Part shown: positions 2,365 to 51,039 of the stretch, piece by piece
Layout: every line of letters starts with the position of its first letter
How positions within the stretch are numbered: the stretch's first letter is position 1
Sequence record: KY794643.1
From: Staphylococcus phage vB_Sau_S24
Length of the DNA stretch: 64,000 bases
Reading direction: 5' to 3' (one strand)
Made by a program: the position numbers and the translations under genes
The notes under the pieces: generated by a model
Databases searched by the model: none
Told to the model about the DNA's origin: nothing
Seen by the model: the letters and a program-made list of their open reading frames with translations, nothing else

Positions 2365-3543
2365 ATGGATTTCAATCAATTTATTAACAATGAGGCAAGC
2401 AAATTAGAAAGCAGTAACAGTTCTTTTAACAACAATGTAGAGAGCTATAAACCTAAAAACCCTGTATTACGATTAGGTAATATTAAAGATGCAAACGGAA
2501 ATAAAGTTACTAAAGAAAATGCTTTTGTACGAGTATTACCACCTGCACAAGGAACAAATGTTTTCTTTAAAGAATTTAGAACATCAGGAATTAACTACTC
2601 TAAGAAAGATGGTTCTCAAGGGTTCACAGGACTAACATTACCTGCAGAACAAGGTTCATCGGTACTTGACCCTTACATTGATAACTGGATAGCAAATGGT
2701 GTTCAGTTCAGTAGATTCCCTAATAAACCTGCAGTACGTTATTACATTCATGTTATTGAATACTTTAATAATAACGGACAAATTCAACCTAAGACAGACT
2801 CACAAGGTAATATCGTTATTCAACCGATGGAATTATCTAACACAGGTTATAAAGAGCTATTAGCAAACCTTAAAGATACTATGTTAAAACCATCACCTAA
2901 CGCACCTCATAGCTTTATTTCAGCAAATGAAGCATTCTTAGTTAATATTGCTAAAGCTAAAAAAGGTGAAATGTCATGGAAAGTTAGTGTTTATCCTAAT
3001 GCTCCTCTTGGTGCATTACCTCAAGGATGGGAACAACAATTATCTGACTTAGAGAAATTAGCACAACCTACAGAAGAACAAAACCCTAACTTTGTTAACT
3101 TCTTAATCAATAACGTTAATAACACAGAGTTAAGTCATGATAACTTTAAGTTTAACCGTGAGACAAATGTCTTAGGTGAAGAGCCTTCAGCACCTAAACA
3201 AGAGCCTACACAACAGGATATAGATAGTCAGATTCCAAGTAATATTGGCGGACAACAACAGGCTCCTGTACAGTCACAGCAACCACAACAACAACAACAA
3301 GGTAATGTTGATTGGAACAACTTAGCTCAACAACAATCACAGCCTGACTCAAACCCTTTCAATGACTTTGATGTAAGTAGTATTGATGATGTACAAGTAC
3401 CTTTCGATACTCAATATCAAAATACACAACAAGCACCTGAACCACAACCTGAACCACAACAAACTACTCAGGAGCCTCCAAAACAAAAAAAAGAACAAAG
3501 TATTGACGATGTATTAGGGAGTTTAGATTTAGATAACCTATAA
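2365..3543 (+). CDS. hypothetical protein with a Q/P-rich linker and acidic C-terminal tail; possible ssDNA-binding protein
   Basis: Strong RBS. The C-terminus is low-complexity (QQPQQQQQ, PEPQPEPQQ) and ends in an acidic tail (IDDVLGSLDLDNL) like those of phage SSBs. It sits directly upstream of the UvsX/RecA-like gene. The functional call is weak. Confidence 0.5.
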   Translation: MDFNQFINNEASKLESSNSSFNNNVESYKPKNPVLRLGNIKDANGNKVTKENAFVRVLPPAQGTNVFFKEFRTSGINYSKKDGSQGFTGLTLPAEQGSSVLDPYIDNWIANGVQFSRFPNKPAVRYYIHVIEYFNNNGQIQPKTDSQGNIVIQPMELSNTGYKELLANLKDTMLKPSPNAPHSFISANEAFLVNIAKAKKGEMSWKVSVYPNAPLGALPQGWEQQLSDLEKLAQPTEEQNPNFVNFLINNVNNTELSHDNFKFNRETNVLGEEPSAPKQEPTQQDIDSQIPSNIGGQQQAPVQSQQPQQQQQGNVDWNNLAQQQSQPDSNPFNDFDVSSIDDVQVPFDTQYQNTQQAPEPQPEPQQTTQEPPKQKKEQSIDDVLGSLDLDNL

Positions 3544-4862: not shown

Positions 4863-5216
4863 ATGGATAATTTAATAGATAAAAACATGAATCAGGTAAA
4901 AGAATCTTTGGGGAATGCAAATTCCTCAGATGTTCTTCCTTTACCTTATAAAAACATAGCAAAGAAATTTGAAGAAGTAAAAGAAAAAGGTGAATCAATT
5001 ATCATTGAAGAAGGTGGATTCCCTTATACAGATTCTACAGTGATGTATATAGAACATGTAACAGATAGATGGGCAGGAGGATACTCCTTAATCAGACATG
5101 AAGGTGAAGAGGTTAAAGTACCTAAAACTATCCATTTCTCTGATATATATGTTAAAGATAAATCACATAAAGTAAGAATAATCTTCGAGGGGGCTAATCC
5201 TTATGAAGAAAGCTAA
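4863..5216 (+). CDS. hypothetical protein (117 aa)
   Basis: ORF in the operon; the RBS is weak. Confidence 0.45.
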   Translation: MDNLIDKNMNQVKESLGNANSSDVLPLPYKNIAKKFEEVKEKGESIIIEEGGFPYTDSTVMYIEHVTDRWAGGYSLIRHEGEEVKVPKTIHFSDIYVKDKSHKVRIIFEGANPYEES

Positions 5217-5865
5217 CAATGGTAATAGATATGTAATAGATATAGATGGTATCCCTGTTGACTTTGAAAGAGACTTAGATAGTTTACTTAATAGATATAA
5301 AAACCTTAGATGGGCATTGTACCATAGATATGCAGGTATTTTATCTAATGACTTTGAAAGACAAGAATTAAGAGAATACATTGATGAGCAATTTATTAAA
5401 CTAGTTAAAGAATATAATATTAGAAGTAAAGTAGATTTCCCTGGATACATTAAAGCTAAACTAACTTTAAGAGTTCAGAATAGCTATGTTAAGAAGAATG
5501 AAAAATACAAACGTACTGAAATTATAGGTAAAAAAGATTATACAGTAGAGTCCTTGACTGAGGATTTAAATGAGGACTTTGAGGATAATCAAATTATGAG
5601 TTATGTATTTGATGATATAGAGTTTACAGAAGTTCAAAGTGAACTACTTAAAGAATTACTTATTAACCCTGAAAGAGAAGATGATGCTTTTATCGTTTCT
5701 CAAGTAGCGGAGAAGTTTGATATGAAGAGAAAAGAAGTAGCAAGTGAATTGACAGAATTAAGAGATTATGTTAGATTTAAAATAAATGCATACCATGAGT
5801 ACTATGCAAAGAAAGAATTAAATAACCATAGAGTTAATACTGAAAATCATATTTGGGAAAACTAG
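5203..5865 (+). CDS. putative sigma-factor-like / transcription regulator (220 aa)
   Basis: RBS GAGGGGG. Helical protein with an HTH-like segment near the C-terminus (SQVAEKFDMKRKEVASELTELRDYV). In Twort-like phages a sigma-like gene follows the recombinase gene. The function is inferred from position. Confidence 0.45.
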   Translation: MKKANNGNRYVIDIDGIPVDFERDLDSLLNRYKNLRWALYHRYAGILSNDFERQELREYIDEQFIKLVKEYNIRSKVDFPGYIKAKLTLRVQNSYVKKNEKYKRTEIIGKKDYTVESLTEDLNEDFEDNQIMSYVFDDIEFTEVQSELLKELLINPEREDDAFIVSQVAEKFDMKRKEVASELTELRDYVRFKINAYHEYYAKKELNNHRVNTENHIWEN

Positions 5866-5991
5866 TTACGGTGCCTTCCTTGTGTTATATTATTATCGAG
5901 AATTCAATAATAAAGCATAGGGAAGGCTTTTTCTATGTCTTATAGAATGCTTTAAAATAGATTACTAAAATAAAGATTGGAGATTAAGCTT

Positions 5992-6624
5992 ATGGCTAAA
6001 AAGAATGTTAATGATGTATTACAGCAAGAATCTGTTACAGTAGCAGATAAATATTTACAAGTTAAGGTTAACCGTGACGGTTATACTCGTACACATGAAG
6101 GACAATATGCGTACAAAGTAGTTTCAGAGGGAGAAGAGTTATTCTTATACCCTGTACAAACAGATGGTAAAGGTGTACTAAATATTATGAAGAAATCACC
6201 TATTGCTTACACTGATGGAGACAACATCCATTTTGTAGTAAACACAGTAGTAGACCCTTATAATCACTCATTTATCCGTACTGAAGATATTAAAGGATTA
6301 GATAAAGGTAAACAACTTATTCAAGCTTTCTTAGCTTTCGTTGAAGACCGTTTCAAATTTGGTGTTTATAACGTATTTGTTGCAAATAACAAAGAAGATG
6401 TATTATCTATTGTAGACCCTACAGATAATGATGCAGATGAAGTTAAAGATAGCTTAAAACATGCACATGAAGATGTAATTGCGGATTTCCCTGCTAGTCC
6501 TGCTCGTAAGGACGTTAAAGGTGTAGATTCAGGAGAAGGTCAAGGAGATACTTCAGAACCATCAACACCTGAGAACGTTCAAGTTACTCCTACAGAAGAC
6601 GGAGCAGACGTAACAGCAGAATAA
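5992..6624 (+). CDS. hypothetical protein (about 210 aa); the ATG start is downstream of the TTG used in the ORF track
   Basis: GGAG lies 9 nt upstream of ATG 5992. A long-loop terminator hairpin (5871-5925) precedes it. Confidence 0.55.
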   Translation: MAKKNVNDVLQQESVTVADKYLQVKVNRDGYTRTHEGQYAYKVVSEGEELFLYPVQTDGKGVLNIMKKSPIAYTDGDNIHFVVNTVVDPYNHSFIRTEDIKGLDKGKQLIQAFLAFVEDRFKFGVYNVFVANNKEDVLSIVDPTDNDADEVKDSLKHAHEDVIADFPASPARKDVKGVDSGEGQGDTSEPSTPENVQVTPTEDGADVTAE

Positions 6625-40840: not shown

Positions 40841-41101
40841 ATGACAAACACAAACAAACAATTTAAAAGATTTGAAGATATGGTAGCAGACAAATTGGAA
40901 ATTTTGAAAAATGTTGATATTGATAATATTGAAGAATTTGAATATAATGAAATTATGGGGGTTACGATTGAATTAACTACAATGATTTTTACAACAAAGG
41001 AATTAACAGAAATTACAGAATCAGAAATTGAACAACATATTAAAAATGAAATTGGATTGACTATTGACGATTTACAACAATTAGAAAATAGTTTTTACTA
41101 A
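40841..41101 (+). CDS. LTR early-type gene, hypothetical (86 aa)
   Basis: Hairpin/promoter (GGGGTTGCAATACCCCTT ... TAATATAAT) followed by RBS ATAGGATTTG. Confidence 0.5.
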   Translation: MTNTNKQFKRFEDMVADKLEILKNVDIDNIEEFEYNEIMGVTIELTTMIFTTKELTEITESEIEQHIKNEIGLTIDDLQQLENSFY

Positions 41102-41217
41102 ATTTAAAAATAGGGCTTGCAAAAGCCCTAAAGATGTAGTAATATAATAGATGTAAGGAACACAAGCACACGGAACAGAAATTAAATAAAAAAATTATAG
41201 AATAGGATTTGATTAAT

Positions 41218-41691
41218 ATGACAAACTTAAACCAATTGAAAGCAATTAAAGTTTCACACCTAGACACTGAGAACAGAAAAACAGTAAGCTACATTTCACA
41301 TGAACAGTTTAAAACTAGCTTTGTAGACGAACGTTGGAAAGGTGAAAGACGTACGAATAACAAATATACTATCTTTGGTTATTACCACACTAAAACAACA
41401 GTTACAAGCCCTAGCGGTAGCCAATCAGTGAGAATGTTCGAATTCCCAGATACTCACGAAGAAGCGGAACTAAACCACCGCAAATACACAAACGACAATG
41501 AAGCACGCTATAGAATTGAACATAGTAACAGTGATGTAAAAACTTTATGGTTACTAGCTAAAAACGGAATTATGAGTTATCAAACTGTACGCAATATATT
41601 TAAAAATGAATCTGATAACTTTATTATCTTCAATAGTAAAAGAACTTATAATAAATTTATGGAAAACAGATACAATAGAAGTTTAGTATAA
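41218..41691 (+). CDS. LTR early-type gene, hypothetical (157 aa)
   Basis: Terminator/promoter TAGGGCTTGCAAAAGCCCTA..TAATATAAT upstream. Confidence 0.55.
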   Translation: MTNLNQLKAIKVSHLDTENRKTVSYISHEQFKTSFVDERWKGERRTNNKYTIFGYYHTKTTVTSPSGSQSVRMFEFPDTHEEAELNHRKYTNDNEARYRIEHSNSDVKTLWLLAKNGIMSYQTVRNIFKNESDNFIIFNSKRTYNKFMENRYNRSLV

Positions 41692-41729
41692 TAGTATAAA
41701 AAAATTATAAAAAAGGAAGTTGATTAATT

Positions 41730-41909
41730 ATGTTTAGAATTAAAATAGATACAAATAAATTAGAAGGTAAAGCATATAAAGAATTTATAGAATTTACAAA
41801 AAATCAAAATTATAATATATATTATAATAATGGAATATTAGATACTTGCATAGATAGTATGGAGGAATTAAATTTATATCCGAATTTAAAACCATATGTA
41901 ATTAAATAA
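41730..41909 (+). CDS. small hypothetical protein (59 aa)
   Basis: RBS AAAAAGGAAGTTGATTAATT precedes the ATG. Followed by hairpin CCCTAGG-attaaatt-CCTAGGG and a T-run. Confidence 0.4.
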   Translation: MFRIKIDTNKLEGKAYKEFIEFTKNQNYNIYYNNGILDTCIDSMEELNLYPNLKPYVIK

Positions 41910-42011
41910 AAAAATTATAGAATTCCCTAGGATTAAATTCCTAGGGATTTTTATTTGTTTCAATTTATATAAAAAAATTATTTAATAAAAAAATTAGTGT
42001 AAAATTGACTG

Positions 42012-42041
42012 TTGACAAGAATATATTTTTTATGGTATAAT
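42012..42041 (+). promoter_or_regulatory. strong promoter TTGACA-N18-TATAAT driving a non-coding element (copy A)
   Basis: GTTGACAAGAATATATTTTTTATGGTATAATGAAG. Confidence 0.55.
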
Positions 42042-42047
42042 GAAGTG

Positions 42048-42330
42048 AAGACCTTTTTTAGTATAAAAATATTATTATATAAAAAATTTATATTAAATGG
42101 TTTTAAAGCCCCTCTTTCTCCCCACCTTGTCATATTTATAGTGGAAGGGTTAGGCGGGTTACCACTGTTTTACTTTCTATATATAGTATACTATGAATAA
42201 CGGTAATTGTCAACACCTTTCAGAAACTTTTTTTACTTTCTTTTATTATTATATAAAAAAATTATATATAAAAAAAGGCTCCAATTCCATTATATAATAA
42301 TTCGGACTTATTGTCAATACTTTTATTAAA
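42048..42330 (+). ncRNA. candidate non-coding transcript, copy A (no credible ORF; conserved 5' end of about 70 nt plus a C-rich tract)
   Basis: Shares ATAATGAAGTGA(A/T)GAC..TTTTTT(AG/CG)TATAAAAATA(A)TATTATATAAAAAA(A)TT(A)TAT with 44020-44090. Has no RBS and no conserved reading frame. Confidence 0.3.
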
Positions 42331-42421
42331 AAAAGTTTTTTAAATTAATTTCAATAAATCTATTGACTTATCTTTTATTATCCTTTAATATATAGGTATA
42401 CCAACAAGGGAGGTAATACAA

Positions 42422-42580
42422 ATGCTAAAATTCAAATGGAAAAACAAAACAATTAAATCAACTCAAAAAACAGATAACATTCTTTTACTTATTATAGGTG
42501 GTTTAGTTGCAACAGTCACACCTAAACTTGTAAATTGGTTTTTACTACTACAAGATAACATAAACATTTTTATTAAATAA
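42422..42580 (+). CDS. small membrane peptide (52 aa)
   Basis: Promoter TTGACTTATCTTTTATTAT upstream. RBS CAAGGGAGGTAATACAA. Confidence 0.4.
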   Translation: MLKFKWKNKTIKSTQKTDNILLLIIGGLVATVTPKLVNWFLLLQDNINIFIK

Positions 42581-42653
42581 GTGTTGACAACTTAGAAATT
42601 ACATGTTAATATTAAGATAACAAATAAAACAACTGAAAAGGAATTGATTAATT

Positions 42654-42962
42654 ATGAAAAACTTACAAAACTTGAAATTTTACTCTTACAGTGGATTTGA
42701 AAGCCCTGAATTACTAGCAATCGGATTTGACAACTTAATAAAAGATTTAACTGTAGAAAGCAATTATCTAGGTGATGTAACAGACGATACTATAGATGAA
42801 TTAAAAGATTGGTTGGATTTGTTTGATACTATTGAAGAAATGCAACAACACCATGAGAATGTAATCAACGGAATTTGGATAAACCCAACATATGAAAATT
42901 TAAAAGATTTTAATTTATCTGTTGGACTTGATGAAAATGATTATATAGAAAGTTTTAAATAA
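42654..42962 (+). CDS. LTR early-type gene, hypothetical (102 aa)
   Basis: Promoter GTGTTGACAACTTAGAAATTACATGTTAATATT upstream. RBS AAAAGGAATTG. Confidence 0.5.
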   Translation: MKNLQNLKFYSYSGFESPELLAIGFDNLIKDLTVESNYLGDVTDDTIDELKDWLDLFDTIEEMQQHHENVINGIWINPTYENLKDFNLSVGLDENDYIESFK

Positions 42963-43124
42963 GTGTTGACAATCTAGAAATTACATGTTATTATTAAGGT
43001 ACAAGGTAAGGGAAGCGGTTGACCGCTTCCAACCTAGTAAAAAAAGTTTTAAAAAACTATTGACAGTCACTTGAAACCATGATATTATTAAGATAACAAA
43101 TAAACAGAAAAGGAATTGATTATA

Positions 43125-43451
43125 ATGAAATTTATCAAAACTATCGAAAACTTATTAGAAAAAGCCGAAAACAAAGGGGAAGCAATTTTAAATGGTCGTA
43201 TGAACATGGGTTGGGGAATGTCTGGAGGACTTGAAGAAAAATATGCAATTGAGATTGACGGTAATAAATTAGTTATGAGACATTGGGGAACACAAACAAT
43301 TGAGATTGACTTAAGCATGAAAGAGATTGTTTCATACTATGGAGAGTCTAACAGTGATAGAGATAGCCTAAACACGCTCGTATATTGCCTAGGGATTGCA
43401 CCAAACTTCCGTTACTTGCCTAGCAAAGATTTATTCATTTACGAAAATTAA
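43125..43451 (+). CDS. LTR early-type gene, hypothetical (108 aa)
   Basis: Two promoters upstream (42965, 43058). RBS AAAAGGAATTG. Confidence 0.5.
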   Translation: MKFIKTIENLLEKAENKGEAILNGRMNMGWGMSGGLEEKYAIEIDGNKLVMRHWGTQTIEIDLSMKEIVSYYGESNSDRDSLNTLVYCLGIAPNFRYLPSKDLFIYEN

Positions 43452-43530
43452 TTAAATAAAGGGCTTGACTTCCAAGCCCTAGCATGATATACTTGTATTA
43501 ACAAATCAAAGAGAAAAGGAATTGATGAAA

Positions 43531-43932
43531 ATGTTCAAATTACAAAATAAAGTGGAAATTATCGTACCTAAGGAAGATAACAACGGTGTTGAGATTGACG
43601 ACTTAGCAATTCGTGAATCATTAGAAAATATCACTAAAATATGTGGAGGTTGTACTACTACAGACGTTAAAGGTCAATGGTATTCAGACAATGAACAACG
43701 TATCATGCAAGACAATAACACTAACCTTGAATGGTACTATAATAAGGCTATGGAGGACGTGAACGACCAACAAGGGCTATTAAAAGGCTTATCAGATATT
43801 ACTAGAATTCTAATCACTGAGTACGGTCAAGAAGGCATTAGCATTAAAATTAATGGTACACTATATATCATTGATGAAAGTGATTTAAATTTCTTATCTT
43901 ATGAATTATACGCTTTAATGTTTAAAAATTAA
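43531..43932 (+). CDS. LTR early-type gene, hypothetical (133 aa)
   Basis: Terminator/promoter AGGGCTTGACTTCCAAGCCCT upstream. RBS GAAAAGGAATTG. An alternative ATG lies at 43525. Confidence 0.5.
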   Translation: MFKLQNKVEIIVPKEDNNGVEIDDLAIRESLENITKICGGCTTTDVKGQWYSDNEQRIMQDNNTNLEWYYNKAMEDVNDQQGLLKGLSDITRILITEYGQEGISIKINGTLYIIDESDLNFLSYELYALMFKN

Positions 43933-43999
43933 ATAAAAAATTTATATAAACCGCTTCGGATTAAATTCTTGAAGCGGTTATTTTCTTTTAAATTAGGGC

Positions 44000-44028
44000 T
44001 TGACAAATGTACGAAAAAATGAGATAAT
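44000..44028 (+). promoter_or_regulatory. promoter TTGACA-N17-GATAAT driving copy B of the non-coding element
   Basis: GCTTGACAAATGTACGAAAAAATGAGATAATGAAG. Confidence 0.5.
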
Positions 44029-44034
44029 GAAGTG

Positions 44035-44170
44035 ATGACTTTTTTTCGTATAAAAATAATATTATATAAAAAAATTATATAAATGAATTTAGTTCGGCTC
44101 TTTCCCGATACCCCTCTTGGGCATCTCTGGTATCTCTACAATTATTATTATACTATGAGTAAGGGAAAAG
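44035..44170 (+). ncRNA. candidate non-coding transcript, copy B (5' region conserved with copy A; runs antisense into the HNH gene)
   Basis: Sequence matches 42046-42110. The downstream flank (44730-44800) matches 42330-42400, which suggests an HNH insertion into a duplicated unit. Confidence 0.25.
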
Positions 44171-44171
44171 G

Positions 44172-44666
44172 TCAACCCTTTCCCTTAAATTCTTTTAAAA
44201 TATATTTTACAGAGTCTAAACTTAAATTATATTCCTTTGCTAGCATTGGCATGGTATACTTATATGGTTTATACTTTTGTTGTATTTCTTTGATTTCTTT
44301 TTGTGTTGGTGCTTTACCTCTTTTGTATCTAAAATCATCAGTTTTATTGTGGTGTGTGGTGTGTTCTAATGGGCTAATACATTCTAGGTTATCAATACAG
44401 TTATTTTGTTTATTACCGTCTATATGGTGGATATGGTAGTCTTTGTTGAAGTCTGTTCCAAAATACTCATATACAAGCCTATGCACTCTGATATTTCTTT
44501 TTGCTATCCTAACTGTTGAATACCCTTTTTTAGTTGCAGAATGTTTTAAAATACGCTCTTTTCCTTTGATGTTACTTTTAACAATACCATTACTAGAAAC
44601 ATAATATTTATTATTTTCATTAGATAATTTTTTTATAAGTTTCCAAATTTCTTTTATTTCTTTCAT
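44172..44666 (-). CDS. HNH homing endonuclease with an AP2/HNH_3-type N-terminal DNA-binding domain
   Basis: HNH motif (YHIHHIDGNKQNNCIDNLECISPLEHTTHH) plus an N-terminal NGIVKSNIKGKERILK...VHRLVYEYFG segment. RBS AGGAGGAATATT. Confidence 0.8.
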   Translation of the reverse strand: MKEIKEIWKLIKKLSNENNKYYVSSNGIVKSNIKGKERILKHSATKKGYSTVRIAKRNIRVHRLVYEYFGTDFNKDYHIHHIDGNKQNNCIDNLECISPLEHTTHHNKTDDFRYKRGKAPTQKEIKEIQQKYKPYKYTMPMLAKEYNLSLDSVKYILKEFKGKG

Positions 44667-44926
44667 ATAATATTCCTCCTAGTTTTTGATTCTCTCTTTT
44701 ATTATATAATAATTTGCCCCCAATGTCAAGAACTTTCTTCAAAATAATTTATTTAAAAAAGTTTCATAAATCTATTGACTTATCTTTTATTATAGTGTAA
44801 TATATAGAGTGTAATAAGGAAGCGGAACACTTAAAAAAAGAAATTAAAAAACTTTTAAAAAAGTGTTGACAAACTTCCAACCACATGTTATTATTAATAT
44901 ATACTAAAGAAAAGGAAATGATAATT

Positions 44927-45181
44927 ATGAAAAAAACATTCGAGCAAGCTTTAAACCACGCACAAGAGGAAATCAGACAAGGCAACTTAGGGGAAACAAT
45001 TGTAACGCTTCAAATAGCATTAAGAAGCAAAGGAATTGTCAAGGTAAGCCAGTTCATGTGTCACAGAAATATGGACGTTGAAACTTTCAAAAATAAAGCA
45101 ATCAAAAACATTTGGGAAAACTTTGAAACAAGCATTGAAGAGTCTGACCTAGAATTACCTTACACAGTGATTTGTAAATAA
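44927..45181 (+). CDS. LTR early-type gene, hypothetical (84 aa)
   Basis: Promoter+leader GTGTTGACAAACTTCCAACCACATGTTATTATTAATATATACTAAAGAAAAGGAAATGAT duplicated at 45375. Confidence 0.5.
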   Translation: MKKTFEQALNHAQEEIRQGNLGETIVTLQIALRSKGIVKVSQFMCHRNMDVETFKNKAIKNIWENFETSIEESDLELPYTVICK

Positions 45182-45255
45182 ATTAAATAAAGGGGTTGAC
45201 ATCCAACCCCTATCATGTTAATATTAGAGTATAAAGAAAAGGGAGGAAATACAAA

Positions 45256-45357
45256 ATGGCAAATTCAAACTTAGGCAACATTCAAAAAATGGCGGACAAA
45301 TTCATGCCACCTGCAGGCTATCCAAATAAGAAGAAAAAGCAAAGCAAAAAGAAATAA
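45256..45357 (+). CDS. tiny basic peptide (33 aa), a candidate only
   Basis: Has its own hairpin/promoter (GGGGTTGACATCCAACCCCT..TAATAT). RBS AAAGGGAGGAAATACAAA. Confidence 0.35.
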   Translation: MANSNLGNIQKMADKFMPPAGYPNKKKKQSKKK

Positions 45358-45436
45358 AAAAATCTAAATAAGGGGTTGACACTTAACCCCTTAGATGTTA
45401 TTATTAATATATACTAAAGAAAAGGAAATGATGACA

Positions 45437-45601
45437 ATGACAAAAACAATCAAACAATTAGAAAGCCAACTTGAAAGGCTAGAAAGAAAATCAGATGAGG
45501 AGTTAGCAAACGGATATTATGATTCATTTGAAAGAACATGTGCACAGATTAGAGAATTAGACCTACAAATCGAATTAAAAAAGAATTCAGAAACTGTTTA
45601 A
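45437..45601 (+). CDS. LTR early-type gene, hypothetical (54 aa)
   Basis: Same leader as the 44927 gene; ATG at the equivalent position. Confidence 0.45.
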   Translation: MTKTIKQLESQLERLERKSDEELANGYYDSFERTCAQIRELDLQIELKKNSETV

Positions 45602-45688
45602 AAAAATTAAATACAGGGCTTGACACTCAAGCCCTAAACCCTTATAATTAGAATTAACAAATAAAACAAATGAGAGGAATTGATAAAC

Positions 45689-45925
45689 ATGAAATTATTA
45701 AACCAAGAAAATCAAATCGTAATTAGCATAGTGACACTTGAGAGTGTCAAAAAAGCCCTAATTTGGGAGTACATCGACCACATAGACAATAACATCCTAG
45801 GCAATAAACTTTATGACACAGAAGCGGTTGTCATTACTTCTGAGACCTTGCAGTCAATCAAATTTGCAGAGACTATGGAAGACCTACAGGAATGCATTGC
45901 AGATATTAATTGGAAATTAGTTTAA
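45689..45925 (+). CDS. LTR early-type gene, hypothetical (78 aa)
   Basis: Hairpin/promoter AGGGCTTGACACTCAAGCCCT..TATAAT upstream. Confidence 0.5.
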   Translation: MKLLNQENQIVISIVTLESVKKALIWEYIDHIDNNILGNKLYDTEAVVITSETLQSIKFAETMEDLQECIADINWKLV

Positions 45926-46015
45926 AAAAGTTTTAAATAAGGTCTTGACTTCCAAGCCCTACAATGGTAATATTAAGGTAGTTAGAAAATACTAAATGAA
46001 AAGGAATTGATTATA

Positions 46016-50962: not shown

Positions 50963-51039
50963 ATAATACTGGAAGGATTTGAACCTACGCCACAAAGACC
51001 GTGTCTCCTGCTCTACCAAACTGAGCTACATGTATTATC
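50963..51039 (-). tRNA. tRNA-like element 1 (D-arm TAGCTCAGTTTGGTAGAGC and T-arm GGTTCAAATCC present; 8-bp terminal helix GATAATAC/GTATTATC; anticodon arm not canonical). May be a divergent tRNA or a pseudo-tRNA.
   Basis: Reverse complement: GATAATACATGTAGCTCAGTTTGGTAGAGCAGGAGACACGGTCTTTGTGGCGTAGGTTCAAATCCTTCCAGTATTATC. I could not fold a standard anticodon stem. Confidence 0.35.

What the first reader, a model, noticed from the sequence alone, without database searches (positions are those of the whole stretch)
42012..44870. Duplicated promoter-driven non-coding element, with one copy apparently split by an HNH homing-endonuclease insertion
Two strong promoters (42012 and 44000) are each followed by the same leader of about 70 nt (ATAATGAAGTGA(A/T)GAC..TTTTTT..TATAAAAATA..TATTATATAAAAAA..) and then a C-rich tract. 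The sequence has indels that break any shared reading frame, so it is probably non-coding. In copy A the element is followed by a 200-bp AT-rich stretch and then the module ..TTCAATAAATCTATTGACTTATCTTTTATTAT.. In copy B the same downstream module reappears at 44730-44800, with the 495-bp HNH endonuclease gene (opposite strand) lying between. The simplest reading is a duplicated sRNA-like unit with a later homing-endonuclease insertion. The copy B transcript would also be antisense to the HNH mRNA.
Basis: seen in the sequence. Interest (0 to 1): 0.55.

Follow-up and report, generated by a model that had tools for sequence, protein, structure and literature searches.

The report
Opposite-strand small RNA beside homing-endonuclease slot
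The duplicated "promoter plus leader" in this staphylococcal phage K-like genome is real, but the conserved RNA most likely lies on the opposite strand. It is an apparently undescribed small structured RNA gene that faces the noticed promoter and sits next to a slot that is either empty or filled by an HNH homing-endonuclease gene.

Summary
The window is the early "host-takeover" long-terminal-repeat region of a Staphylococcus Kayvirus. In detail: there are two paralogous modules, A at 41.92-42.40 kb and B at 43.95-44.81 kb, and an intact HNH_3/NUMOD4 gene (44172-44666, minus) lies inside B.

- Each module carries four near-consensus sigma-70 promoters: P1(+), P2(-), P3(-) and P4(+).
- The "downstream module" is not the 3' half of a split RNA. 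It is the divergent pair P3/P4, both of which have published RNA-seq support in relatives. P3 is the HNH promoter.
- The HNH fills a slot between P2 and P3. The slot is empty in A here, but phage K carries a paralogous HNH (TreM) in A.
- The "C-rich tract" is the antisense of a small RNA gene ("S") driven by P2 on the minus strand, at 42098-42174 and 44084-44134.
- S has a 7-bp helix kept through eight sequence versions, with G.U at the fourth pair in all but one, which points to the minus strand. Copy A adds a second helix that makes an H-type pseudoknot. An SD-like purine tract (GGGAAAGAG) follows.
- There is no Rfam match. Phage K's predicted "snc002" covers the 3' part of S.

The function is inferred: a convergent sense/antisense pair.

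The parts
41924..41947 (+). Terminator hairpin T_A that closes the upstream early gene (41730-41909). This is the true start of module A.
   Evidence: Terminator scan. The paralogous hairpin in module B has the same loop and a different stem.
42012..42041 (+). P1_A, a consensus sigma-70 promoter (TTGACA-18-TATAAT with TG extension). It faces the S RNA gene.
   Evidence: The initial transcribed sequence GAAGTGAAGACC is shared with P1_B. A facing promoter of this kind is found at 25 of 27 S copies.
42042..42097 (.). AU-rich 'leader' shared by both copies. On the minus strand it is the U-rich 3' end region of the S_A transcript.
   Evidence: 88% identity between the copies (D3). In phage K the equivalent stretch is the 3' part of predicted sncRNA snc002, 5022-5067 minus. 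The folds are weak.
42098..42174 (-). S_A, the core of the small RNA gene, pseudoknot type. S1: 42166-42162 pairs with 42144-42140. S2: 42158-42152 pairs with 42127-42121. Purine tract GAGAAAGAG: 42120-42112. Hypervariable 6 nt: 42111-42106.
   Evidence: Covariance-model hit, E=3e-17. Coordinates. Covariation.
42185..42213 (-). P2_A, promoter of S_A (TTGACA-17-TATACT).
   Evidence: An own promoter lies 8-28 nt upstream of 25 of 27 S copies.
42214..42288 (.). Empty homing-endonuclease slot of module A. It is AT-rich filler between P2 and P3.
   Evidence: Alignment with phage K site A. Homology breaks after the P2 -10 and resumes at the P3 start region. Phage K has the HNH TreM in between.
42289..42317 (-). 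P3_A, a minus-strand consensus promoter (TTGACA-17-TATAAT). It has no gene to drive in this copy.
   Evidence: It is the homologue of the HNH promoter p13 of phage 515A1 and of the gp013 promoter of phage K.
42363..42391 (+). P4_A, promoter of the TreN-like membrane-protein gene (42422-42580).
   Evidence: 9/12. It is the homologue of p14/TU5 of 515A1 and of phage K promoter no. 6.
43950..43978 (+). Terminator hairpin T_B after the 136-aa gene (43522-43932). This is the start of module B.
   Evidence: Read from the sequence. It has the same loop core as T_A, ATTAAATT, with a different stem.
44000..44028 (+). P1_B (TTGACA-17-GATAAT with TG extension). It faces S_B.
44084..44134 (-). S_B, the core of the small RNA gene, hairpin type. 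S2: 44125-44119 pairs with 44113-44107, with loop AAGAG. Purine tract GGGAAAGAG: 44106-44098. Hypervariable 6 nt: 44097-44092. A short upstream hairpin lies at 44139-44130.
   Evidence: Covariance-model hit, E=2.4e-5. Coordinates. A near-identical copy is in L020.
44147..44175 (-). P2_B, promoter of S_B (TTGACC-17-TATAAT). Its -35 lies in the loop of the hairpin 44161-44186 that follows the HNH stop codon.
   Evidence: and sequence. The phage K equivalent, 5150-5168, is annotated as the HNH terminator.
44172..44666 (-). Free-standing HNH homing-endonuclease gene, 164 aa, with RBS AGGAGG.
   Evidence: ORF. Pfam HNH_3 and NUMOD4. It is 85% identical to the site-B HNH of P68 and SAP01 and 58% identical to TreM.
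44701..44729 (-). P3_B, promoter of the HNH gene (TTGACA-17-TATAAT).
   Evidence: It is the homologue of the RNA-seq-supported p13.
44775..44803 (+). P4_B, the paralogue of P4_A. A further promoter follows at 44866, upstream of the next early gene.
   Evidence: (D4).

Best explanation
The region holds two paralogous copies of a regulatory module from the Kayvirus long terminal repeat.

Order of parts in each module:
- a terminator hairpin;
- P1, a strong plus-strand promoter;
- an AU-rich stretch;
- a small RNA gene 'S', read from its own promoter P2 on the minus strand, so that it faces P1;
- a slot for a free-standing homing-endonuclease gene;
- P3 (minus), which drives that gene when it is present;
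- P4 (plus), which drives the next early genes.

In copy B the slot holds an intact HNH_3/NUMOD4 endonuclease. In copy A it is empty here, but in phage K-type relatives it is filled by the paralogue TreM. The HNH difference is therefore an ordinary homing-endonuclease presence/absence polymorphism at two paralogous landing sites. It is not the splitting of an RNA gene.

The conserved non-coding element is S. It is an RNA of roughly 90-115 nt (ends inferred). It has a 7-bp helix (S2) that carries a near-invariant G.U. Copy A also has a 5-bp helix (S1) interleaved with S2, which gives an H-type pseudoknot. Copy B has a separate short hairpin upstream of S2 instead. Directly after S2 comes a single-stranded, Shine-Dalgarno-like purine tract (GGGAAAGAG), then 6 hypervariable nt, UAAA, and a U-rich end.

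What is shown: the anatomy, the promoters as sequence, the HNH polymorphism, the covariation and its strand, and the convergent arrangement in relatives.

What is inferred: P1 and P2 fire towards each other, so the P1 transcript is a full antisense of S. My preferred mechanism (about 40%) is a cis-antisense, transcriptional-interference pair. In it, S/P2 limits plus-strand read-through from P1 into the endonuclease slot and towards TreN, and P1 in turn limits S. The second choice (about 20%) is a trans-acting RNA whose purine tract binds pyrimidine-rich partners, such as the 3' end of 16S rRNA, acting as an SD mimic or ribosome-bound stabiliser.
For: Context:
- 268 Staphylococcus Herelleviridae records match the region. 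The annotations call the genes TreN, TreP and HNH, inside the LTR.

Promoters:
- All four promoters per copy score 9-12 of 12.
- P3 and P4 correspond to p13 and p14 of phage 515A1, both taken from RNA-seq start sites, and to the phage K gp013 and gp014 promoters.

HNH:
- Pfam domains.
- Empty versus occupied alleles at both sites.
- The break points lie between the P2 -10 and the P3 start region.

S RNA:
- On the MAFFT alignment A3, the two-helix structure has 99.2% of cells paired, against 44-54% for slid controls.
- On the model-built alignment A5 (15 distinct sequences), S2 has 99% of cells paired. Five of its seven pairs change on both sides, with up to four pair types per column. G.U is present in 15 of 15. 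Slid controls give 36-55%.
- The middle pair of S1 occurs as CG, UA and AU.
- A further allele in L037 changes two more pairs and still pairs fully.
- For each of eight alleles, shuffles give a perfect helix abutting the purine tract in only 0.8-12% of cases.
- The model finds exactly two significant hits in the 64-kb window, at the two copies and on the minus strand.
- Of 27 S copies, 25 have their own promoter 8-28 nt upstream, and 25 have a facing promoter 56-105 nt beyond the core.

Expression:
- Phage K snc002 (5022-5067, minus strand, at least 5-fold minus-strand coverage) maps onto the purine tract and U-rich end of S.

Not previously catalogued:
- No Rfam family matches, even at E<=10.
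Against: - Thermodynamic folding gives no significant signal. Z-scores are -1.1, 0.0 and -1.4 for the minus-strand RNAs.
- The covariation rests on about eight alleles that differ as blocks, not on many independent substitutions.
- Alignment A5 was fitted to the model.
- P1 and P2 do not appear in the RNA-seq-derived promoter data that were read.
- snc002 is a computational prediction with a low coverage threshold, and it covers only the 3' third of S.
- The 5' and 3' ends of S are inferred. The 3' region folds weakly.
- Copy B lacks the pseudoknot.
- One relative, L023, shows no facing promoter.
- The idea that P1 delays HNH expression has no firm support. gp013 is called 'middle' in one phage K study, 'early' in another, and has an early promoter in 515A1.
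Confidence: 0.6

Rival explanations
1. P1 drives a plus-strand sRNA made of the leader and the C-rich tract. Copy B of this sRNA gene was split by a later HNH insertion, and its transcript now also acts as antisense to the HNH mRNA.
For: - P1 is the best promoter match in the region, and its leader is 88% conserved between the copies.
- The plus-strand tract CUCUUUC(C/U)CC resembles the C-rich seeds of S. aureus sRNAs and the 3' end of 16S rRNA (own knowledge).
- In copy B and in phage K, the hairpin at the P2 -35 is followed by a U-rich run on the plus strand. It could end a discrete P1 RNA of about 160-175 nt.
Against: - The conserved helix has G.U in 15 of 15 aligned sequences on the minus strand. 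That is C.A on the plus strand.
- The 'second half' of the supposed RNA is the promoter pair P3/P4, which has published RNA-seq support.
- The element between P1 and P2 is complete in both copies.
- P1 is not in the published promoter data that were read.
- Plus-strand folds are unremarkable for copy A, with z = -0.3.
Confidence: 0.15
2. No RNA function. The region is a recombination scar, made of shuffled promoter/terminator cassettes and leftover promoters from earlier endonuclease insertions. The helices are chance or relics.
For: - The LTR is full of repeated promoter/hairpin cassettes (families D1, D2, D8).
- P1-type and P3-type promoters share the same first 12 transcribed bases and occur as bare face-to-face pairs with only about 73 bp between their -10 boxes.
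- The architecture of site B differs greatly between relatives.
- Folding energies are not significant.
Against: - Eight different helix sequences all keep full pairing at the same place next to the same purine tract, with double-sided changes in 5 of 7 pairs.
- Each S copy keeps its own promoter.
- S is retained in relatives whose proteins are only about 59% identical (L006).
Confidence: 0.15
3. A very small protein is encoded on the plus strand, from the ATG at 42097 (14 codons in copy A).
For: The ATG, the TTA and the CTCTTTC stretch are conserved. The hypervariable stretch is exactly 6 nt, which is two codons, in almost all alleles.
Against: - There is no Shine-Dalgarno sequence upstream.
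- The product length is 14, 42 or 118 aa in different copies.
- L025 has a 1-nt deletion that shifts the frame.
- The differences between alleles are not concentrated at third codon positions (and inspection).
Confidence: 0.03

Closest known systems
TreM, the free-standing HNH homing endonuclease of Kayvirus long terminal repeats (phage K gp013)
   Same: - Same domain make-up and size.
- Same orientation, opposite to the early genes.
- Same promoter type (P3).
- Same position between P2 and P3 of the module.
- A hairpin at the stop codon.
   Different: The window's gene is only about 58% identical to TreM. It sits in the second module (site B, after the 136-aa gene) rather than upstream of TreN. 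Its closest relatives are the site-B genes of P68 and SAP01 (about 85%), which have a different 3' junction.
snc002 of phage K, a predicted small non-coding RNA (Finstrlova et al. 2022, PMC9241854)
   Same: Same locus and same strand. 5022-5067 (minus) of NC_005880.2 lies between P1 and P2 of site A.
   Different: snc002 is a 46-nt software prediction. It covers only the purine tract and the AU-rich end. The promoter P2, the helices, the family and the second copy were not described.
PeSL cassettes (promoter-early stem-loop) of T4-type phages, which mediate modular shuffling (Arbiol et al. 2010, PMC2839356; Comeau et al. 2014, PMC4122927)
   Same: Repeated early-promoter and hairpin units flank small early genes in a variable region. 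Here the -35 box lies inside the hairpin (family D1, and P2_B). The shuffled layouts in relatives fit recombination between such units.
   Different: The phage family, the host and the sequences are different. No recombination products were examined here. PeSLs are not reported to include a structured RNA gene (own knowledge of those papers; only their titles and abstracts were seen).
Face-to-face promoter and cis-antisense control modules, such as coliphage 186 pR/pL and Enterococcus pCF10 prgQ/prgX (recalled from memory)
   Same: Two strong promoters converge over about 60-160 bp. Their transcripts overlap completely at the 5' ends, and one partner is a short structured RNA.
   Different: Neither RNA has a demonstrated target gene or switch function here. 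No experiment exists. In some copies the pairs flank nothing.
T4 gene 32 mRNA operator, a pseudoknot followed by an unstructured AU-rich tract with UAAA repeats (recalled from memory)
   Same: An H-type pseudoknot with an A-rich third loop is followed by AU-rich sequence containing UAAA/UUUAA.
   Different: There is no downstream gene or start codon, a purine tract lies in between, and there is no sequence similarity. This is a resemblance only.

Membership tests
HNH homing endonuclease (free-standing, HNH_3/NUMOD4 type) | HNH catalytic domain | tested here: met
   Pfam HNH_3, E=1.4e-12, 47.5 bits against a cut-off of 24.8, residues 60-102.
HNH homing endonuclease (free-standing, HNH_3/NUMOD4 type) | Nuclease-associated DNA-binding module | tested here: met
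   Pfam NUMOD4, E=2e-6, 28.4 bits against a cut-off of 23.4.
HNH homing endonuclease (free-standing, HNH_3/NUMOD4 type) | Presence/absence polymorphism at the same intergenic site among close relatives | tested here: met
   Site A is empty in the window, Clo6, SAP01 and others, and occupied in K, Sa87, RODI and SAP1. Site B is occupied in the window, SAP01 and P68, and empty in Clo6, Stab22, CG and others.
HNH homing endonuclease (free-standing, HNH_3/NUMOD4 type) | Site-specific cleavage of the endonuclease-less allele and gene conversion | not testable with these tools
   This needs enzyme assays or co-infection crosses. The only hint is that K- and SAP1-type S alleles always accompany TreM and the WA-type allele never does.
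Any Rfam RNA family | Covariance-model match at or near the gathering score | tested here: not met
   The whole window at gathering thresholds gives only one tRNA, at 50965-51035. The region 41900-44900 at E<=10 gives only sub-threshold chance hits, none on S.
Structured small RNA gene (general criteria) | Base pairs kept through compensatory changes | tested here: met
   The caveat is that there are few independent alleles and one alignment was fitted to the model.
Structured small RNA gene (general criteria) | Own promoter and a defined transcript | tested here: inconclusive
   A consensus-like promoter lies 8-28 nt upstream of 25 of 27 copies. The only transcript evidence is at least 5-fold minus-strand coverage of snc002 in phage K. 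No start or end has been mapped.
Structured small RNA gene (general criteria) | Folding energy below that of shuffled sequence | tested here: not met
   Z-scores are -1.1, 0.0 and -1.4. Pseudoknots are not modelled by that tool.
Type I toxin-antitoxin (convergent toxin mRNA and antisense RNA) | A small hydrophobic toxin ORF with an RBS in one of the overlapping transcripts | tested here: not met
   There is no conserved ORF with an RBS on either strand between P1 and P2.
PeSL-like mobile regulatory cassette | A repeated unit of stem-loop plus early promoter flanking variable small genes | tested here: met
   Families D1 and D2 have 5-6 copies in 5 kb, with TTGACA inside the hairpin.
PeSL-like mobile regulatory cassette | Evidence of recombination between cassettes (circles, exact junctions) | not tested
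   The only evidence is indirect: different module orders in relatives.

The most novel reading that the evidence does not exclude
S is a previously unrecognised family of small structured RNAs, pseudoknot or hairpin plus an SD-like purine tract. It is made in the first minutes of Kayvirus infection from 1-3 dispersed genes, each held in check by a facing promoter. It may act in trans on the host, for example as a ribosome/anti-SD decoy or as a mimic of an RNA antitoxin or other defence RNA. The HNH endonucleases may home next to, and drive diversification of, this RNA gene. That would explain why S alleles differ so much while keeping their pairing.
Probability: 0.2. Interest if true: 0.75.

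Novelty: new member of a known kind. Interest (0 to 1): 0.5.

Why it matters
Kayviruses (phage K, ISP, 812, Sb-1 and relatives) are the main therapeutic phages against Staphylococcus aureus. Their terminal-repeat 'host-takeover' region is the first DNA expressed, and it is almost entirely of unknown function.

A conserved structured RNA there, present in two copies in this phage and up to three in a relative, would be a new early player. It is easy to test: delete P2, break and restore S2, run a Northern blot. It would also correct current annotations, which place spurious small ORFs over it. Examples are the 62-aa ORF at 42012-42200 and its annotated equivalents in SAP01 and ESa2.

The work also gives a clean pair of empty and occupied alleles for studying how free-standing HNH endonucleases move between paralogous sites in these genomes.

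If S turns out to have no function, the region is still a clear example of promoter/terminator cassette shuffling outside the T4-like phages.

Tried and rejected
- Rfam. Scans at gathering thresholds and at E<=10 found nothing on the element. The weak hits (rpsL_ricks, SAM-II, PART1_3) are below threshold and lie elsewhere or are nonsensical.\n- Single-sequence folding of P1 and P2 transcripts. No significant or shared minimum-energy structure appeared. The structure was found only by comparing alleles.\n- Plus-strand mini-ORF and minus-strand ORFs. Rejected: no RBS, variable length, a frame-shifting indel, and no third-position pattern.\n- Reading the polypurine tract as the RBS of a downstream minus-strand ORF. 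No start codon lies at a usable distance, and there are stops in all frames (inspection).\n- Wider distribution. Exact-pattern scans found the leader in only 2 IMG/VR contigs and in no metagenome contig. A looser tail pattern gave 15 viral and 99 metagenome loci. When screened with the model, these proved to be chance matches, except the known contig and one new real copy, L037.\n- Element X of relatives. It has a similar promoter, helix and G-rich tail on the plus strand at site B, and looked homologous by eye. The models did not recover it, so its homology remains a lead only.\n- The argument that P1 antisense transcription delays HNH expression. Dropped as evidence, because the temporal class of gp013 differs between studies.\n- Pairing partner for the hypervariable 6 nt. 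None was found.\n- Type I toxin-antitoxin reading of the convergent promoters. Rejected because there is no toxin ORF.

Full report
**1. Context**

A megablast of 41900-44900 finds 268 phage records, all Staphylococcus Herelleviridae, mostly Kayvirus. The matching stretches are annotated as terminal-repeat-encoded genes (TreJ, TreK, TreN, TreO, TreP), 'HNH homing endonuclease' and hypothetical proteins, inside the long terminal repeat. The window is therefore the early host-takeover region of a phage K-like virus. This region is dense with sigma-70-type promoters and hairpins. In 41000-46000 the scan finds 49 promoter-like sites against 30.5 expected, and 7 terminators against 1.3 expected.

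**2. Observation check**

- P1_A (42012-42041, 12/12) and P1_B (44000-44028, 11/12) both have a TG extension.
- The following 65 nt are 88% identical between the copies, and 42289-42395 matches 44701-44807 at 79%.
- The ORF 44172-44666 (minus, 164 aa) lies between the two halves of copy B. It has HNH_3 and NUMOD4 domains.
- The duplication also includes the upstream terminator hairpins, which share a loop but have different stems.

**3.

Each copy has four near-consensus promoters, not one.

| Promoter | Strand | Copy A | Copy B |
|---|---|---|---|
| P1 | + | 42012-42041 | 44000-44028 |
| P2 | - | 42213-42185 | 44175-44147 |
| P3 | - | 42317-42289 | 44729-44701 |
| P4 | + | 42363-42391 | 44775-44803 |

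- The 'downstream module' is the back-to-back pair P3/P4.
- In phage 515A1, the homologues of P3 and P4 are p13 (minus; unit TU4, the HNH treM) and p14 (plus; unit TU5). Both were used to build the promoter matrix from RNA-seq start sites.
- Phage K studies list the same promoter for gp013.
- In copy B, P3 is followed by AGGAGG and the HNH start codon. The HNH stop codon lies inside the -35 box of P2, and that box sits in the loop of a 10-bp hairpin at 44161-44186.
- In copy A, only about 75 nt of AT-rich filler separate P2 from P3.

**4. Relatives and the HNH gene**

- Phage K, Sa87, phiIPLA-RODI, SAP1, V1SA09, V1SA12 and HMGUsa2 carry an HNH (TreM/gp013) in module A, exactly between P2 and P3.
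- The alignment of window site A with phage K site A is about 97% identical through P1 and the leader. It drops to about 65% in the stretch before P2, breaks after the P2 -10, and resumes at the first transcribed bases of P3.
- Module B holds an HNH in this window, SAP01 and P68. It holds none in Clo6, Stab22, CG, CF7, Sa87 and RODI.
- The window's protein is about 85% identical to the P68 and SAP01 genes and about 58% identical to TreM.
- HNH-less site-B alleles do not look like copy A. They contain bare face-to-face promoter pairs with 73 bp between the -10 boxes, and another short element, X.
- The HNH is therefore a mobile, polymorphic insert at two paralogous slots. It does not interrupt an RNA gene.

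**5. The conserved element is on the other strand**

The stretch between the leader and P2 exists in very different sequence versions:
- WA, in window copy A;
- WB, in window copy B;
- K and SAP1, named after their phages;
- one each in the distant relatives L006 and L037;
- two hairpin-class (H) versions, H1 (L020-2163, L025, L026) and H2 (L020-3348).

Read on the minus strand, every version has a 7-bp helix (S2) that ends directly at a purine tract (GGGAAAGAG, GAGAAAGAG or similar).

| Version | S2 5' arm / 3' arm |
|---|---|
| K | GGAGCCU / AGGUUCC |
| WA | CCCGCCU / AGGUGGG |
| SAP1 | CCUGCA / UGUAGG |
| L006 | CCAGCCU / AGGUUGG |
| WB | GAUGCCC / GGGUAUC |
| H1 | GUUGCCC / GGGUAAC |
| H2 | GCAGCCC / GGGUUGC |
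| L037 | GUUACUC / GAGUAAC |

- In the K, SAP1, WA and L006 types, a second helix (S1) is interleaved with S2. S1 is AGCGG/CCGCU, AGUGG/CCACU or AGAGG/CCUCU. This gives an H-type pseudoknot with an A-rich third loop.
- In the H class, which includes window copy B, S2 is a simple hairpin with loop AAGAG or AAGCG. A separate hairpin precedes it.

Formal counts:
- On the MAFFT alignment A3, 99.2% of cells are paired, against 44-54% when partners are slid.
- On the model-built alignment A5 (15 distinct rows), S2 is 99% paired. Five of seven pairs change on both sides, with up to four pair types in a column. Pair 4 is G.U in 15 of 15. Slid controls give 36-55%.
- The middle pair of S1 is CG, UA or AU.
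- In shuffles of each allele, a perfect helix abutting the tract arises in 0.8-12% of cases.
- The G.U would be C.A on the plus strand, so the structure belongs to the P2 transcript.
- Model R2 finds two significant hits in the whole 64-kb window: 42098-42174 (E=3e-17) and 44084-44134 (E=2.4e-5), both on the minus strand.
- Of 27 copies in 25 loci, 25 have their own promoter 8-28 nt upstream, and 25 are faced by a consensus promoter 56-105 nt past the core.

**6. Published expression data**

- Finstrlova et al. list 'snc002' at 5022-5067, minus strand, between gp012 and gp013 of phage K. That interval runs from the purine tract of S to the U-rich stretch.
- snc002 was predicted by nocoRNAc and accepted at 5-fold or greater coverage on the correct strand. 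This is weak support for minus-strand transcription and for a 3' end there.
- P1 and P2 do not appear in the promoter data that were read. The text of the phage 515A1 paper mentions only long non-coding RNAs elsewhere in the genome.
- Rfam has no matching family, and a literature search for Kayvirus plus pseudoknot found nothing relevant.

**7. How it most likely works**

What is shown:
- two convergent, near-consensus promoters;
- a structured RNA gene between them;
- an SD-like single-stranded tract fixed next to the helix;
- a neighbouring endonuclease slot.

What is inferred:
- S starts about 7 nt after the P2 -10 box, and the structure begins 8-28 nt after that box.
- S ends in the U-rich 'leader'.
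- The P1 start (about 42048 in copy A, about 44035 in copy B) lies just beyond that end, so the P1 RNA is a complete antisense of S.

I favour a cis-antisense, transcriptional-interference pair. S/P2 opposes plus-strand read-through from P1 into the slot (antisense to the HNH in copy B) and on towards TreN (copy A), and P1 in turn opposes S.

A trans role through the purine tract is the main alternative. The tract is complementary to CUCUUUC and close to the ideal SD for the 16S 3' end.

The bare face-to-face promoter pairs in relatives, and the shared first 12 transcribed bases of P1- and P3-type promoters, suggest that these promoter units multiply and shuffle like the PeSL cassettes of T4-type phages.

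**8. Caveats**

- Few independent alleles exist, and they differ as blocks.
- One alignment was fitted to the model.
- Folding energies are not significant.
- Transcript ends are unmapped.
- Copy B lacks the pseudoknot.
- The link between S allele type and HNH presence is incomplete. K and SAP1 types always occur with TreM, and WA never does, but the H class occurs both with and without an HNH.
- The timing of HNH expression is reported inconsistently.

**9. Verdict**

The HNH, its promoter and the LTR promoters are known. The module structure, the duplicated HNH slot and, above all, the minus-strand S RNA family appear to be undescribed, apart from the partial snc002 prediction.

Noticed in passing
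window 42966-43120: A consensus promoter (42966) is followed by a short leader with the hairpin GGAAGCGGTTGACCGCTTCC, and then a second promoter (43060) before the TreP-like gene. This is the equivalent of phage K 'snc003' (6186-6352, plus strand). A similar remnant, AAGGAAGCGGAACAC, follows P4_B at about 44815. Rfam SAM-II hits the region weakly (24 bits against a gathering score of 44), probably by chance.
   Followed up: partly
window 43460-43480, 45191-45211, 45369-45393, 45614-45636: Terminator-like hairpins carry the -35 box TTGACA of the next promoter in or beside their loop (repeat family D1, 6 copies in 5 kb). This is a composite terminator/promoter cassette reminiscent of the PeSLs of T4-type phages.
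   Followed up: partly
window 42106-42111 and 44092-44097 (minus strand of S): Six GC-rich nucleotides lie between the purine tract and a conserved UAAA. They differ in nearly every allele (GGGCTT, TGGTTC, CGGTTT, CGTTTC, CCGGAA, CCCGCT, CCCGAC, CCGAAC and others), but the length stays at 6, except for 5 in L025. No pairing partner was found.
   Followed up: partly
window 42042-42053, 44029-44040, 42288-42277; relatives L020 3392-3420, L037 1310-1335: P1-type and P3-type promoters share their first transcribed bases (GAAGTGA(A/T)GAC or GGAAGTG...). These bases resemble the 5' end of hairpin-class S RNAs (TATAAGTGAAGTAGAG...). The extra promoters may therefore be S-gene promoters that lost, or exchanged, what they drive.
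   Followed up: no
L003 4159-4255 (also L001 3390-3480, L002 4164-4255, and others): Element X at site B of relatives. A plus-strand consensus promoter is followed by GGUU-AA-GGAGCCC-AA-GACC-AAAGAA-GGGUUUC-GGGGGGAGUCCGUCCUUUUUU and is faced by a minus-strand promoter. The helix could match S2, again with G.U at pair 4. X variants next to an HNH (SAP01, P68) differ in the G-rich tail. The S models did not recover it.
   Followed up: partly
L020 (IMGVR_UViG_2974596821_000001) 2063-2113, 3348-3392, 5990-6040: A more distant relative carries three S genes, all on the minus strand and each faced by a plus-strand promoter. No HNH was found in the stretch held.
   Followed up: partly
window 42012-42200 (+), 41978-42133 (-): Mechanical ORFs of 62 aa (TTG start) and 51 aa lie over P1 and S. 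Equivalents are annotated as hypothetical proteins in some relatives (SAP01 CDS 5793-5984, ESa2 CDS15, V1SC01). They are probably annotation artefacts.
   Followed up: partly
window 43522-43932: The 136-aa early protein just upstream of module B is annotated 'SAM hydrolase (similar to 7OCK_L?)' in phage vB_SAP01. It has no Pfam match here.
   Followed up: no
window 50965-51035 (-): One tRNA gene is the only Rfam match in the window at gathering threshold (34 bits).
   Followed up: no
L023 (OPT-SC01) 632-708: This is the only full-length S copy examined without a recognisable facing promoter within 260 nt.
   Followed up: no
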